DNA of 64,000 bases from Escherichia coli (GTDB lineage Bacteria; Pseudomonadota; Gammaproteobacteria; Enterobacterales; Enterobacteriaceae). The DNA is taken from NCBI RefSeq assembly GCF_001677475.2, contig NZ_CP015229.1; one strand, 5' to 3'. The position numbers were made by a program. Positions 3,001 to 9,000 of this stretch are shown piece after piece (within the stretch, counting starts at the first letter, position 1; every line of letters begins with the position of its first letter).

Positions 3001-6000
3001 ATGGTCTGAGTCAGAAGAAGAACGAAGAGTAAGCGCGAATATGCCTGATGGTGCAACACCATCAGGCATATTAACTTATGCTTTCAGTACAGCCAGAGCT
3101 GCTTCGTAATCCGGCTCGGTGGTGATTTCATCCACCAGCTGGCTGAAAATCACATTGTCATTTTCGTCAATAACCACAACGGCACGCGCTGCCAGACCTT
3201 TCAGTGGGCCATCAGCAATTGCCACACCGTAGGCTTGCAGGAATTCAGCGTTACGGAAAGTGGAGAGGGTGATAACGTTGTTCAGACCTTCTGCGCCGCA
3301 GAAACGAGACTGGGCGAACGGCAGATCGGCAGAGATACACAGCACAACGGTGTTGTCGATCTCTGTTGCCAGTTGGTTAAACTTACGTACTGATGCGGCG
3401 CAAACACCGGTATCAATACTCGGGAAAATGTTCAGCACTTTGCGTTTACCCGCAAACTGACCGAGGGTGACGTCAGACAGATCTTTTGCCACGAGAGTAA
3501 AAGTCTGCGCTTTGCTACCCGCCTGCGGGATGGAATTGGCGACTGTAACCGGGTTGCCCTGGAAATGAACGGTTTGTGACATGATTATCTTTCCTGTTTA
3601 CATATAGTTAACGTCACACCTAGTTTATGCTAACTGTCAATAACACAGCAAACGCTATTTGCGCTTAATCCGCAGACAACCGCGACAACAAGGAGTAAAG
3701 ATGAGAACCGTTAAGGTTTTTGAGGAAGCCTGGCCCTTACATACCCCGTTTGTGATTGCTCGGGGAAGTCGCAGTGAAGCGCGCGTGGTGGTGGTTGAAC
3801 TGGAAGAAGAAGGTATTAAAGGCACCGGTGAATGCACGCCGTATCCGCGTTATGGAGAAAGTGATGCCTCGGTAATGGCGCAAATTATGAGCGTCGTGCC
3901 GCAATTAGAGAAAGGGCTGACACGGGAGGAGTTGCAAAAAATTCTCCCTGCCGGCGCAGCACGTAATGCGCTGGATTGTGCATTATGGGATCTGGCGGCG
4001 CGAAAACAGCAGCAATCGCTGGCTGATTTGATCGGCATAACGCTTCCCGAGACAGTCACCACTGCCCAGACGGTAGTCATCGGTACGCCTGATCAGATGG
4101 CCAATAGTGCATCAACACTCTGGCAGGCAGGCGCGAAATTACTGAAAGTAAAGCTGGATAACCATCTTATCAGTGAGCGGATGGTGGCAATTCGCACAGC
4201 TGTGCCCGATGCGACGCTGATCGTTGATGCAAATGAATCCTGGCGTGCAGAAGGGTTGGCGGCGCGTTGCCAGCTATTGGCGGATTTAGGCGTTGCGATG
4301 CTTGAACAACCGCTTCCTGCGCAGGACGATGCGGCGTTGGAGAATTTTATTCATCCGTTACCGATTTGTGCAGATGAAAGTTGTCATACTCGTAGCAATC
4401 TGAAGGCGCTGAAAGGGCGCTATGAGATGGTTAACATTAAGCTCGATAAAACGGGTGGCCTGACGGAAGCGCTGGCGCTGGCGACTGAAGCACGTGCACA
4501 AGGTTTTAGTCTGATGCTGGGCTGCATGTTGTGTACCTCTCGTGCCATTAGCGCCGCTTTACCGCTGGTGCCGCAGGTCAGTTTCGCCGATCTTGACGGA
4601 CCGACCTGGCTGGCGGTAGATGTGGAACCGGCGCTTCAGTTCACAACGGGCGAATTGCATCTTTAGGATGCCAGCGCAGCAAGTTTGCCATCGCAAAGAG
4701 ATATTTTTCGCTGGCTTCGTCGGAGGAGATGGGCGGAAACTCTGCGGTGATGCAATGCAGGTTGAGATCCGCACACCAACTACCGAAAGAGCCAGGTGTT
4801 TCATAACCGACGCTGGTTACCAGAGGCAATTCAAACGCCTGGGCCAGCCATTCGCCTAATTCGCTGTGTCTGGGATCTTCAATACAGGCCAGCGGATCGT
4901 GGAATGAGACCACCCAGGCAGGTTGAATGCGGTGTATAAGCTGGCACAGCGCCTGGGTTTCAGGTTCGGAGCCAGGTTTGTCACCTGTCAGCAATACGAC
5001 ATCACGTTCTTCAGCGGCGCTGTTCCAGCGATAAACGGTTTCACTTTCCTTCCAGTTCGCCGCCGGAAAGTTTCTGTTTAAATCCACACCATTAGCATTG
5101 GCCCGTAACCCCAACTGGCAGCCGTCAGGATTCACACACAGCACCACATGATGACGGCGCAAAGAAGGTGTCAACGTCCGCAGAGCACAGGAGAGCGTGA
5201 CGATCGAAGAGTTTTCATCACCGTGAGTGCCAGCCAGAATCAAACCACTTTCGCGGCTGGCTGCAGGGGCAGGAAACCAGATTAACGGCGCGCCCAATAA
5301 TGAACGTCCGTAATGTTCTGTTCCGGGCGGAAATGCGCCGCGTTCGGCGCGTGGGCGAGTTACGGTCATGATCGTCTCTGGTTCAGGAAGTATTACAGGC
5401 AGTGTTGTGCAAATTTTGCGGATTATCAAATCCTTTTCTTCAACGCTATGTTATCGATCTTGTATCACTTTTTTGATGGAAGTTGTTTGCATTTTCATTG
5501 ATGTGCAGATATTAGAATTGTCGTAATGTTATATACATGGCGTATTTTATTCTTACTGGTTCTACACATGTTAATCGCATCTGATTGATCAGTTCACCTT
5601 AATAAGTTTAATAAATCGTACTGCACATAGTACAGTACGATGGTAGCTATATAATTGATTTACATGAAGAATGGCTTATCGCCATCAGTCCCGGGTTGAT
5701 TGATTCCTATATTCTCACCAATGTGTTTCTCAGGTTTATCGATGATATCTGTAATTAATGCTGCGACACTCTTACGTGATACGATCGTACCTTTGAATGG
5801 TTCATTGCGTGAGGTAAGCTCATAATCAATAATATCTTCATCAGTCAGCCAGGCAGGGCGAAGAATTGTATATTCCAGTCCAGAAGCCTCAATTGCATCC
5901 GCAGCCCTGCGGAATGGTTTTAGGGGTTCACCAATAACTGCATTATTCCATTCGCCAAATTTTCCTGGAACTTCATCATAAATACCGAGGGAAAGAACAA

Positions 6001-9000
6001 AGATCAGACGTTTAACATCACAGGCTTTCATCGCAGCGATCACTGAATTTGCCTGAATATCTAAATCTTCCCCCGTAAGGTTGGCATACACAACATCCTG
6101 TCCCTGCATGGCCTGCTTCAGTGCTGCATGATTCAGTACATCCCCCATAATAATCTTGCTATTAGTGGGATAGGGTTTGTGGATTTTTGCTGGCTGACGG
6201 GCAAATAAAGTTTGTTTAATGGTTTGTTTATCTGCCAGTTGATTAATCACATGGCGGGCTATCTGACCGCCAGCACCAAGAATCAGTACATTTTTCATGA
6301 AGCTTTTCCCAGATTATTGGCAGCAATATGCCAGGCCATATCACTATTACGGATTTGAATATGTTTCATTACAGAGTTTCCTCAAAGAACGGAGCTAATA
6401 CTGAAATTGATTCAGCCACATAGACTTTGCCGTCATAAAGATCCATATGGTTTGCGCCTTCAACAATGTGATAGCGTTTATCCTGGCTTGATGCTCGATC
6501 GTACAGGTCGTCACTCATCCATTTGCTCCCTGCCTGGCTGCCCGCCACAATCTGTATCGGCTGAGTCAGGTACACTTCCGCCATATGGTAAGCATCATAG
6601 GTAATAATCTGGTTAAGGCTGCGCAAAGTAGCGTAACCCGGTGCTGTTGGGTACTGCGCGCGAGGGGTGTGGTAATACTCCCAGGCCTGACGCAGTTCTT
6701 CGTTCAGCGCATCGGACTCCTTCATTGGTGCCAGTGGCATAGTGGCGTATTCTCCGCTGCTAATATCGCTGGTTCGGGCGTTTGAACCCGCGTCAACGTA
6801 TGGTAGGGCATCAATAGATTTCACATTGTTTTCCCAACCATTACGGAACATCGAACCAATATTGACCGCACTAACGGTAGCGATGGCCTTGATGCGGCGA
6901 TCCTGAATGGCAGCATTGGCTGTATATCCTGCACCGGCACAAATTCCCATCGCACCAATTCGGGTATTGTCGACATAAGAAAGCGTTGTCAGGTAATCAA
7001 TCACGGCACTGACGTCTTCAGTACGAATGTATGGGTTTTCTAACTGACGCGGCTCGCCGCCGCTTTCACCTTGATAAGATGCGTCATAAGCAATAGTGAC
7101 AAATCCCTTTTCCGCCAGTTTTTCGGCATAGGTTCCGGCCGTTTGCTCTTTAACGCCTCCACCTGGGTGAGATACCACAATTGCCGGATACTGACGGGTT
7201 TCATCAAATTTTGGAGGGAAATAGATCACTGCAGACAAAGAGATGGTTGGATTATTGCTGTTAGTGAAGCTGACTTTATTATTCATCATTCCGTTCCTCA
7301 TGGAGTTGTCGGTTCGTTTTGACGGTTGGTGATATCACTATAGATATTGATCATTAAGTTGATTAGACCCTAAATTATGATTAGACCTATCATTTAAATG
7401 ATTAATAGATTGTATGGAGATACTGAATGAAGCGTGAAGAAATCGCTGATCTGATGGCGTTTGTCGTCGTTGCAGAGGAGCGTAGCTTCACTCGCGCAGC
7501 AGCCCGCCTGAGCATGGCGCAGTCAGCTTTAAGCCAGATAGTGCGCCGTATAGAAGAACGATTGGGATTGCGGCTTCTGACGCGAACCACGCGCAGCGTT
7601 GTACCCACTGAAGCGGGCGAGCATCTTTTGTCTGTTCTTGGCCCTATGTTGCATGACATAGATTCTGCCCTGACATCCCTGAGCGATCTGCAGAACCGCC
7701 CATCCGGGACAATACGTATTACTACTGTAGAACATGCAGCAAAAACGATATTGTTACCAGCTATGCGCACATTCCTGAAATCGCATCCTGAAATTGATAT
7801 CCAGCTTACCATTGATTATGGTTTGACCGATGTCGTTTCTGAACGTTTTGATGCAGGCGTCCGTCTGGGTGGGGAGATGGATAAAGATATGATCGCCATT
7901 CGAATCGGGCCAGATATACCAATGGCTATTGTTGGCTCACCGGATTATTTTTCTCGTCGAAGTGCTCCAACGTCAGTGTCACAATTAATAGATCATCAGG
8001 CAATTAATTTGTATCTTCCCACATCGGGTACAGCAAATCGCTGGAGATTAATACGCGGTGGACGTGAAGTTCGTGTTCGCATGGAAGGTCAGCTTTTACT
8101 GAATACGATAGACCTGATCATTGATGCTGCAATTGATGGGCATGGATTGGCGTATCTACCTTATGATCAGGTTGAGCGGGCTATTAAAGAAAAAAAACTG
8201 ATACGTGTTTTGGATAAATTCACACCAGATTTACCCGGTTATCACCTGTACTATCCACACCGTCGACATGCTGGCTCGGCATTCTCATTATTTATAGATA
8301 GGCTGAAGTATAAAGGTGCTGTTTAGCACTACTTGCTGATACATTAATTTAATTCTTCTCTTAACGTATTCTTAGTTCCTTTCAACGTTTTGGTCGTTTT
8401 TTATTCTTCGTACAATGGCGACAGATGCTGATTATGATACCGAAAACGGGTTTGAACGTGCGAAGCCCGAACGTAGTGTTCGGAGTTCTATGTGCTTTAC
8501 CGCATTTTGGAGACTATTATTTACACTAAATCTGATTTGATATATTGATACTTAAAACATTTGATGCTTCCTTTGTCACTTTTTTGATGGAAGTTGTTTG
8601 CATTTCTTTAAGGCGAAACAAATAATTACGCATCAATTTTAATGTCGGTTAGAGGGAAACTTATGAAGCACTCTGTTTCAGTCACGTGTTGTGCGCTGTT
8701 GGTCAGCAGCATTTCTCTTTCGTATGCAGCTGAAGTTCCGAGCGGCACAGTACTGGCAGAGAAGCAGGAGCTGGTGCGCCACATTAAAGATGAGCCTGCG
8801 TCGCTGGATCCCGCTAAAGCCGTGGGCCTGCCAGAGATTCAGGTCATTCGCGATCTGTTTGAAGGACTGGTGAATCAGAACGAGAAAGGGGAGATTGTCC
8901 CCGGCGTTGCGACTCAGTGGAAAAGTAATGACAACCGTATCTGGACTTTTACCCTGCGCGATAACGCAAAATGGGCGGATGGCACGCCGGTAACGGCGCA

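What the first reader, a model, noticed from the sequence alone, without database searches (positions are those of the whole stretch)
5660..6298. Intact NAD(P)-binding gene where K-12 carries pseudogene fragments
The 212-aa ORF with an N-terminal Rossmann motif lies between ycjY and mpaA on the same strand; my recollection is that the K-12 equivalents (ymjC/ymjD) are degraded. If so, this strain has the ancestral intact ycjY-ymjC-mpaA operon.
Basis: partly seen in the sequence, partly recalled or inferred. Interest (0 to 1): 0.2.

Follow-up and report, generated by a model that had tools for sequence, protein, structure and literature searches.

The report
Intact ymjC reductase gene, degraded in K-12
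This E. coli strain keeps a full-length copy of a small NAD(P)H-dependent reductase gene that K-12 has cut down to a stub, but the intact form is common, already catalogued and already crystallised, so the finding is correct and ordinary.

Summary
The ORF is real. It lies at window 5660-6298 on the minus strand, is 212 aa long, and matches Pfam NAD_binding_10 over its full length (E=3e-54). It sits between ycjY and mpaA.

- **ymjD is a different gene's remnant.** It is the stub of a second alpha/beta hydrolase that once lay between ycjY and this gene. The window carries the same stub (6295-6369), so it is an intermediate state, not the ancestral one.
- **The ancestral unit is a four-gene cassette.** It reads pgrR (LysR) <-> ycjY-hydrolase2-reductase. 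The order is kept in 13 loci of Proteobacteria and Bacteroidota and is fully intact in some E. coli.
- **The cassette is bounded by 37-nt direct repeats** and sits between mpaA and mppA.
- **mpaA probably does not belong to it.** A terminator-like hairpin follows the reductase gene.

Counts among 5,426 complete E. coli genomes:

| State | Genomes |
|---|---|
| Full cassette | 1,272 |
| Window type | ~1,620-1,660 |
| K-12 type | 2,293 |
| No cassette | 174 |

The protein equals RefSeq WP_000800177.1 and is 98.6% identical to PDB 3QVO. Its biochemical function is unknown. Already known; low interest.

The parts
5660..6298 (-). Intact 212-aa atypical-SDR / NAD(P)H-binding reductase gene, the full-length counterpart of the K-12 ymjC remnant
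   Evidence: ORF. PF13460 E=3e-54, full length. PDB 3qvo 209/212 identical. Identical to WP_000800177.1. All 44 positions that are >=95% conserved in 84 homologues are retained. dN/dS 0.04-0.12.
6295..6369 (-). 24-codon remnant ORF (MKHIQIRNSDMAWHIAANNLGKAS*), equivalent to K-12 ymjD. It is the start of a deleted second alpha/beta-hydrolase gene. Its ATG overlaps the ycjY stop (TAATG) and its TGA overlaps the reductase ATG (ATGA).
   Evidence: Translation. Alignment with O157 and K-12. K-12 ymjD is MKHIQIRNSDMDWHIAANNLG*, and intact hydrolase 2 begins MKHIQIRNSDMAWHIAANIQF.
6369..7289 (-). ycjY, the first alpha/beta hydrolase of the cassette, with a Cys nucleophile in a GxCxG elbow
   Evidence: Annotation transfer. 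PDB 5xb6 'YcjY' E=2e-198. Pfam DLH, Peptidase_S15 and Hydrolase_4. C117 and H281 are >=90% conserved in 43 homologues, along with several Asp residues (e.g. D232, D261).
7427..8326 (+). pgrR (ycjZ), the divergent LysR-type regulator of the cassette
   Evidence: Pfam HTH_1 + LysR_substrate. Annotation. A divergent LysR gene is kept next to the hydrolase/reductase genes in 15 loci of other bacteria.
5615..5641 (-). 12-bp perfect hairpin followed by UUUAUU, 18 nt after the reductase stop codon. It is terminator-like and is deleted in K-12.
   Evidence: Fold gives -19.9 kcal/mol, z=-2.0. It lies within the K-12 deletion. The consensus terminator scan did not call it.
5496..6159 (.). Segment absent from K-12 MG1655 (~660 bp; the boundaries are ambiguous by 4 nt)
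   Evidence: BLAST blocks window 3000-5499 and 6160-8400 against MG1655. Alignment. The same junction is found in 2,293 of 5,426 complete E. coli genomes.
5458..5494 (+). Left copy of the 37-nt direct repeat that bounds the pgrR-ycjY-reductase cassette
   Evidence: the repeat finder family D1. A single copy is present in cassette-free strain 1428.
8569..8605 (+). Right copy of the 37-nt direct repeat (92% identical; the inner 30 nt are identical)
4641..5369 (-). mpaA, the downstream neighbour. It belongs to the older mpaA/mppA/ycjG murein-tripeptide cluster, not to the cassette.
   Evidence: Annotation. mpaA and mppA are adjacent and divergent in 174 genomes that lack the cassette.

Best explanation
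The ORF is a functional, full-length gene for a small atypical short-chain dehydrogenase/reductase with an NAD(P)H-binding Rossmann fold. It is the intact counterpart of the K-12 ymjC stub. It is the last gene of a horizontally spread cassette, LysR regulator (pgrR) <-> hydrolase 1 (ycjY) - hydrolase 2 - reductase. In E. coli the cassette sits between mpaA and mppA, flanked by 37-nt direct repeats. The locus is decaying stepwise. The full cassette is the first state. Loss of hydrolase 2, leaving the ymjD stub, gives the window's state. An additional ~660-bp deletion of the reductase gives the K-12 state. Inferred working model: the gene is transcribed from the PgrR-controlled ycjY promoter. 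It is translated by coupling through the overlapping stop/start codons of ycjY, the ymjD stub and the reductase. Transcription largely ends at the hairpin before mpaA. The enzyme probably uses NADPH (conserved Arg34 after beta-2). It would reduce a carbonyl or enone compound that the Cys-nucleophile, dienelactone-hydrolase-like partner enzymes produce or consume, in a small catabolic or detoxification route for an unidentified ester or lactone. Shown here: gene identity, intactness, family, locus states and their frequencies, and cassette conservation. Inferred: expression, termination, cofactor and substrate. The confidence of 0.75 is for the statement as a whole: about 0.95 for identity and locus history, and about 0.3 for the proposed biochemistry and termination.
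For: - ORF and family.
- Sequence constraint: dN/dS is 0.09-0.12 within E. coli and 0.04 against Pseudocitrobacter, and all family-invariant residues are kept.
- K-12 deletion.
- Hydrolase-2 remnant.
- Cassette order LysR<->HYD-HYD-SDR is found in 13 loci, from Pseudocitrobacter, Stenotrophomonas, Paraburkholderia, Caballeronia, Achromobacter, Afipia, Mesorhizobium, Hyphomicrobium, Zoogloeaceae, Chryseobacterium and Empedobacter. A hydrolase lies next to the reductase in 29 of 80 loci.
- A fully intact cassette with the same reductase protein exists in E. coli WWCOL-315.
- Direct repeats and the empty site.
- Low G+C: the gene is 0.43 and the cassette 0.44, against 0.55 for mpaA.
- Hairpin.
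- Hydrolases carry conserved Cys117/His281 plus candidate acidic residues and Pfam DLH matches.
- Frequencies of the states.
Against: - No expression, cofactor or substrate data exist for this protein. Literature searches found none.
- NCBIfam has no equivalog model for it.
- The window has already lost hydrolase 2, so the pathway may be crippled and the reductase may be on its way to decay.
- The terminator-like hairpin was not called by the consensus scan, and its fold z-score is only -2.0.
- In K-12 the literature lists ycjY-ymjDC-mpaA as one PgrR-controlled unit (PMC5934670), so read-through into mpaA in this strain cannot be excluded.
- Whether the cassette-free site is ancestral or a secondary loss is unresolved, because no Escherichia outgroup could be examined.
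Confidence: 0.75

Rival explanations
1. One reading: the window preserves the ancestral, intact three-gene operon ycjY-ymjC-mpaA, and K-12 ymjC and ymjD are both fragments of this one gene.
For: The reductase is intact here and truncated in K-12. All three genes are on one strand with short gaps between ycjY and the reductase. K-12 literature names a ycjY-ymjDC-mpaA unit (PMC5934670).
Against: ymjD matches the first 19 codons of a separate 310-aa hydrolase gene that is present in 1,272 genomes. The window carries that same deletion scar. The two-hydrolase arrangement is the one conserved across phyla. mpaA is separated from the reductase by 290 nt that hold a hairpin and the cassette boundary repeat.
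Confidence: 0.08
2. The ORF is intact only by recency. With hydrolase 2 gone the cassette is non-functional in this strain, and the reductase gene is a not-yet-mutated relic on the way to the K-12 state.
For: The locus shows repeated independent damage in E. coli. The damage includes the hydrolase-2 deletion (3,949 genomes), the reductase deletion (2,293) and IS1 insertions. O157 has a frameshifted hydrolase 2 plus R175P at a >=95% conserved reductase residue.
Against: About 1,620-1,660 genomes keep the window-type arrangement with the reductase region full-length. The protein is identical to that of a strain with a complete cassette. Nine of twelve substitutions against O157 are synonymous. 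Single-hydrolase plus reductase pairs are a natural arrangement in 16 other loci.
Confidence: 0.2
3. The reductase works in peptidoglycan-peptide recycling together with MpaA, MppA and YcjG, as the K-12 name PgrR ('peptidoglycan recycling regulator') would suggest.
For: Physical adjacency to mpaA, mppA and ycjG. The PgrR regulon as listed for K-12 includes mpaA and ycjG.
Against: None of the 80 loci with a homologue in other bacteria carried mpaA, mppA, ycjG or tpx relatives near it (tblastn). 174 E. coli genomes have mpaA and mppA adjacent without the cassette. K-12, where the regulon was defined, lacks the reductase altogether.
Confidence: 0.05

Closest known systems
E. coli K-12 ymjC (b4525) and ymjD (b4673)
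   Same: Same chromosomal position and strand. ymjC codons 1-46 are collinear with the window gene. ymjD corresponds to the window's 24-codon ORF at 6295-6369.
   Different: K-12 ymjC is a 60-aa stub that lacks residues 47-212. K-12 ymjD is 21 aa because of an earlier stop (TAA where the window has AAA). ymjD derives from a different gene, hydrolase 2.
PDB 3qvo, deposited as 'NmrA family protein' (a structural-genomics entry; Shigella flexneri origin is my recollection, not shown by the tool)
   Same: 209/212 identical over the full length, so the fold of the window protein is effectively solved.
   Different: There are three substitutions, one of them G115V at a residue invariant in 84 homologues. 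No function is assigned. The NmrA Pfam model matches only residues 2-100.
PDB 3r6d/4ipt/4hng/4hnh, deposited as 'NAD-dependent epimerase/dehydratase' (Veillonella parvula origin is my recollection, not shown by the tool)
   Same: Same length class and a full-length alignment, E~2e-19. Same PF13460-type atypical SDR.
   Different: Low identity. The GiYxEvpGKFGEWNN block of the window family is not kept (alignment). It is also uncharacterised.
Biliverdin-IX-beta reductase / flavin reductase (BLVRB) and the haem-operon protein ChuY/ShuY
   Same: Small (~205-215 aa) single-domain NADPH-dependent atypical SDRs without the classical YxxxK. They are detectable as sequence relatives (E 5e-6 to 3e-5).
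   Different: Only remote similarity and a different gene context (haem utilisation for ChuY). There is no evidence that the window protein acts on tetrapyrroles or flavins.
LysR-controlled dienelactone hydrolase + maleylacetate reductase modules of chloroaromatic catabolism (clc/tfd type; established knowledge, used only as an analogy)
   Same: The logic is the same: a divergent LysR regulator, Cys-nucleophile DLH-like hydrolase(s), then an NAD(P)H-dependent reduction step.
   Different: Maleylacetate reductases belong to the iron-containing alcohol dehydrogenase family, not to SDRs. No dioxygenase or cycloisomerase genes accompany this cassette. The substrate is unknown.

Membership tests
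PF13460 NAD(P)H-binding (atypical SDR, Rossmann fold) | Full-length profile match above the curated cut-off | tested here: met
   184.1 bits against a cut-off of 27.2; residues 8-189 cover profile positions 1-184 of 184.
PF13460 NAD(P)H-binding (atypical SDR, Rossmann fold) | N-terminal glycine-rich dinucleotide-binding motif | tested here: met
   L7-G8-A9-G10-G11-Q-I13-A14. L7, G8, A9, G11, I13 and A14 are >=95% conserved in 84 homologues.
PF13460 NAD(P)H-binding (atypical SDR, Rossmann fold) | Binds NAD(P)H and catalyses hydride transfer | not testable with these tools
   Only indirect evidence: Arg34 at the end of beta-2 is >=95% conserved, which in related enzymes contacts the 2'-phosphate of NADPH (inference).
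Classical SDR | Catalytic Tyr-x-x-x-Lys motif | tested here: not met
   No YxxxK occurs anywhere in the 212 residues. The conserved Tyr107 and Lys113 are six residues apart (YDEVPGK). The protein is therefore 'atypical'.
NmrA-like family (the name given to PDB 3qvo) | Match across the NmrA profile | tested here: not met
   PF05368 matches only residues 2-100, which correspond to profile positions 3-104 of 298. This is the shared Rossmann half only.
Orthologue of K-12 ymjC | Same locus, strand and neighbours, with a collinear 5' end | tested here: met
   Window 6160-8400 and 3000-5499 align to MG1655 at 98% on either side of the deletion. The first 46 residues are identical.
LysR<->hydrolase-hydrolase-reductase cassette | Divergent LysR regulator and first hydrolase upstream of the reductase | tested here: met
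   pgrR at 7427-8326 (+) and ycjY at 6369-7289 (-). The same order occurs in 13 loci of other bacteria.
LysR<->hydrolase-hydrolase-reductase cassette | Second hydrolase gene between ycjY and the reductase | tested here: not met
   Only a 24-codon remnant remains at 6295-6369. About 880 bp are missing relative to O157 and WWCOL-315.
BLVRB / ChuY-type reductases | Close sequence relationship or shared context that implies the same substrate | tested here: inconclusive
   E-values are 5e-6 to 3e-5. There is no haem-utilisation context in the window.

The most novel reading that the evidence does not exclude
The pgrR-ycjY-hydrolase2-reductase unit is a foreign catabolic or detoxification cassette that landed in the divergent mpaA/mppA promoter region. 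In strains with the intact reductase gene, transcription stops at the hairpin downstream of it. The K-12-type ~660-bp deletion, present in 42% of complete genomes, removed that hairpin and fused cassette transcription to mpaA. On this reading, PgrR's textbook role as a 'peptidoglycan recycling regulator' is a lineage-specific by-product of gene decay, and it would not hold in window-type or O157-type strains.
Probability: 0.25. Interest if true: 0.4.

Novelty: already known. Interest (0 to 1): 0.12.

Why it matters
The finding matters little as stated. That K-12 ymjC is a truncated stub follows directly from public records, and the intact protein is in RefSeq and in the PDB. The useful by-products are these:

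- It corrects the ymjC/ymjD relationship, because ymjD is a scar of a second hydrolase gene.
- It gives a clear four-state picture of a decaying cassette, with frequencies across 5,426 genomes.
- It cautions that regulatory conclusions drawn from K-12 (PgrR, the ycjY-ymjDC-mpaA 'operon') come from a damaged version of the locus and may not transfer to other E. coli.
- Strains with the complete cassette (e.g. WWCOL-315) are the right background for finding the unknown substrate of YcjY, hydrolase 2 and this reductase.

Tried and rejected
- my first K-12 junction probe was off-centre, with the junction at position ~109 of 120. It matched nearly every genome and is uninformative. It was repeated correctly.
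- the promoter and terminator consensus scan found no more sites than shuffled sequence did. It also missed the hairpin that was later seen by folding.
- NCBIfam gave only far-below-cut-off hits, so there is no equivalog and no functional name.
- no Rfam family lies in 4500-8800.
- the literature on ymjC, ymjD, YcjY, 3QVO, 5XB6 and b4525 gave no biochemical function. There were only screen hits: a pan-genome association with lactic-acid resistance (PMC9602453), a 2-fold trimethoprim MIC shift that was not complemented (PMC8355897), and filamentation on ycjY over-expression (PMC3614548).
- the primary PgrR paper (Shimada 2013) and Choi 2016 are not held, so operon evidence for K-12 comes only from secondary tables.
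- a tblastx search of the pgrR-mppA spacer, where PGAP marks a 'QueH' fragment in relatives, against the 80 foreign loci found nothing.
The state in E. albertii, E. fergusonii and the cryptic clades could therefore not be examined. I rejected using further expensive protein searches for this low-interest question.
- I considered a structure prediction and fold search and rejected it, because a 98.6% identical crystal structure already exists.
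Full report
**Observation**

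An ATG-to-TAA ORF of 212 aa lies at window 5660-6298 on the minus strand. The evidence that it is a real gene:

- It matches Pfam PF13460 (NAD(P)H-binding) over the whole profile, at 184 bits and E=3e-54. NmrA and Epimerase give only partial N-terminal hits.
- NCBIfam has no specific model for it.
- It is 209/212 identical to PDB 3qvo ('NmrA family protein'). The next solved relatives are 3r6d/4ipt (E~2e-19). ChuY/ShuY and BLVRB are remote, at E 5e-6 to 3e-5.
- The protein is identical to RefSeq WP_000800177.1, 'SDR family oxidoreductase'.

The neighbours on the same strand are ycjY (6369-7289) and mpaA (4641-5369). pgrR/ycjZ (7427-8326) and mppA lie on the other strand.

**Comparison with K-12**

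Two MG1655 records were examined (NZ_CP010442.1, NC_000913.3).

- Window 3000-5499 and 6160-8400 align at 98% to contiguous K-12 sequence, with a 4-nt overlap at the junction.
- K-12 therefore lacks ~660 bp. The missing stretch holds codons 47-212 of the gene and the 160 nt downstream of it.
- The K-12 ymjC product is the first 46 residues plus 14 unrelated ones.

**What ymjD is**

In O157:H7 and many other strains a second alpha/beta-hydrolase gene of 930 nt lies between ycjY and the reductase.

- K-12 ymjD (MKHIQIRNSDMDWHIAANNLG*) and the window's 24-codon ORF at 6295-6369 (MKHIQIRNSDMAWHIAANNLGKAS*) are the first 19 codons of that gene joined to sequence from its 3' end.
- So ymjD is a scar of a different gene. 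The window has that scar too.
- In the window the scar ORF starts on the ycjY stop (TAATG) and ends on the reductase start (ATGA). This would allow translational coupling (sequence; inference).

**The ancestral unit**

A scan of one genome per species found no Escherichia locus. It found relatives in Pseudocitrobacter (83%), in alpha-, beta- and gamma-proteobacteria (58-69%), and in Bacteroidota and Lactobacillaceae (~45-55%).

- Thirteen loci from four classes keep the order LysR<->hydrolase-hydrolase-reductase.
- Twenty-nine of 80 loci have at least one YcjY-like hydrolase beside the reductase.
- None of the 80 has mpaA, mppA, ycjG or tpx relatives nearby.
- E. coli YcjY is 80-84% identical to alpha-proteobacterial copies, and the cassette is G+C-poor (0.44 against 0.55 for mpaA). 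Both point to horizontal spread.
- E. coli WWCOL-315 has all four genes intact, with the same reductase protein as the window.

The window is therefore an intermediate decay state, not the ancestral one.

**Cassette boundaries**

A 37-nt direct repeat occurs at 5458-5494 and at 8569-8605. E. coli strain 1428 has mpaA and mppA adjacent and divergent, 182 nt apart, with one copy of that sequence. Its left flank equals the window's left side and its right flank equals the window's right side. Whether this is the pre-insertion site or a repeat-mediated loss is unresolved.

**Frequencies in 5,426 complete E. coli genomes**

| Feature | Genomes |
|---|---|
| Hydrolase 2 present | 1,272 |
| ymjD-type junction | 3,949 |
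| K-12 deletion junction | 2,293 |
| Reductase region >=80% covered | 2,895 |
| Empty site (no cassette) | 174 |

The window type is thus 3,949-2,293 = 1,656 genomes, or 2,895-1,272 = 1,623 by the other route. That is about 30%, so it is a common configuration.

**Is the gene likely functional?**

- All 44 positions that are >=95% conserved in 84 homologues are retained. They include G105-x-Y107-x-E109-x-x-GKFGEWNN119, R147-P-x-W-L, E160, T162, R175 and K208-P209.
- dN/dS is 0.09-0.12 within E. coli and 0.04 against Pseudocitrobacter.
- There is no YxxxK motif, so the protein is an atypical SDR.
- Arg34 after beta-2 is conserved, which suggests NADPH as cofactor (inference).

**Operon question**

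Eighteen nucleotides after the stop codon there is a 12-bp perfect hairpin (5615-5641) followed by UUUAUU (z=-2.0). The consensus scan did not call it.

- Between the hairpin and mpaA lie the boundary repeat and the 125 nt that also precede mpaA in cassette-free strains. mpaA therefore most likely keeps its own promoter (inference).
- The K-12 deletion removes the hairpin.
- K-12 literature lists ycjY-ymjDC(-mpaA) as PgrR-controlled (PMC3946193; PMC5934670).
- That link could be a consequence of the deletion. This is untested, and it is my 'novel case'.

**Function**

Function is unknown in the literature. Both partner hydrolases have a GxCxG nucleophile elbow, with Cys117 and His281 (plus several Asp residues) conserved. 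They also match Pfam DLH, and YcjY itself is solved as PDB 5xb6. The reasoning is by analogy with LysR-controlled dienelactone-hydrolase and reductase modules, which is established knowledge and an analogy only. On that basis I propose an NADPH-dependent reduction coupled to hydrolysis of an unidentified ester or lactone.

**Verdict**

The thing itself is already known and common, so interest is low.

Noticed in passing
window 5458-5494 and 8569-8605: A 37-nt direct repeat (inner 30 nt identical) brackets the whole pgrR-ycjY-reductase block. It is present once in E. coli genomes where mpaA and mppA are adjacent. The left edge of the K-12 deletion lies only ~5 nt from the left copy.
   Followed up: yes
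L003 (O157:H7 ECP19-598) 3231-3869 and 3890-4820: In this O157:H7 genome the second hydrolase is frameshifted. The reductase carries R175P at a residue that is >=95% conserved in 84 homologues, so the 'full' cassette of O157 may itself be inactive.
   Followed up: partly
PDB 3qvo versus window 5660-6298: The crystallised near-identical protein has Val where the family has an invariant Gly (G115, within GKFGEWNN). The solved structure may therefore be of a slightly damaged allele.
   Followed up: no
window 1-20000: No complete RefSeq E. coli genome exceeds 99.0% identity to the first 20 kb of the window (all 5,422 best hits fall in the 95-99% band). The source strain is therefore not closely represented in that collection.
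   Followed up: no
window ~8420-8520 (pgrR-mppA spacer): In related strains PGAP annotates a 75-93-nt internal fragment of an 'epoxyqueuosine reductase QueH' pseudogene here. The window spacer is 95.5% identical to that region. A tblastx search against the foreign cassette loci found nothing.
   Followed up: partly
L086 (strain 873.10) 3357-4054; hit H1 (strain 181.1): There are independent IS1 insertions at this locus. In 873.10 an IS1B replaces the reductase gene while both hydrolases stay intact. In 181.1 an IS1A interrupts the region. This is further evidence that the locus is a hotspot of decay.
   Followed up: partly
loci L020, L046, L082 and 16 Lactobacillaceae loci: Homologues of the reductase that lack a neighbouring hydrolase often sit near a small (~130 aa) putative winged-helix regulator. 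I labelled it HxlR-like from its sequence only. It occurs in 19 of 80 loci. This may hint at an electrophile or carbonyl stress role in those lineages.
   Followed up: no
window 6369-7289 and homologues: YcjY and its paralogue use Cys, not Ser, in the nucleophile elbow (GxCxG, Cys117 conserved in >=90% of 43 homologues). This fits a dienelactone-hydrolase-like enzyme rather than the peptidase or peptidoglycan hydrolase suggested in some papers.
   Followed up: partly
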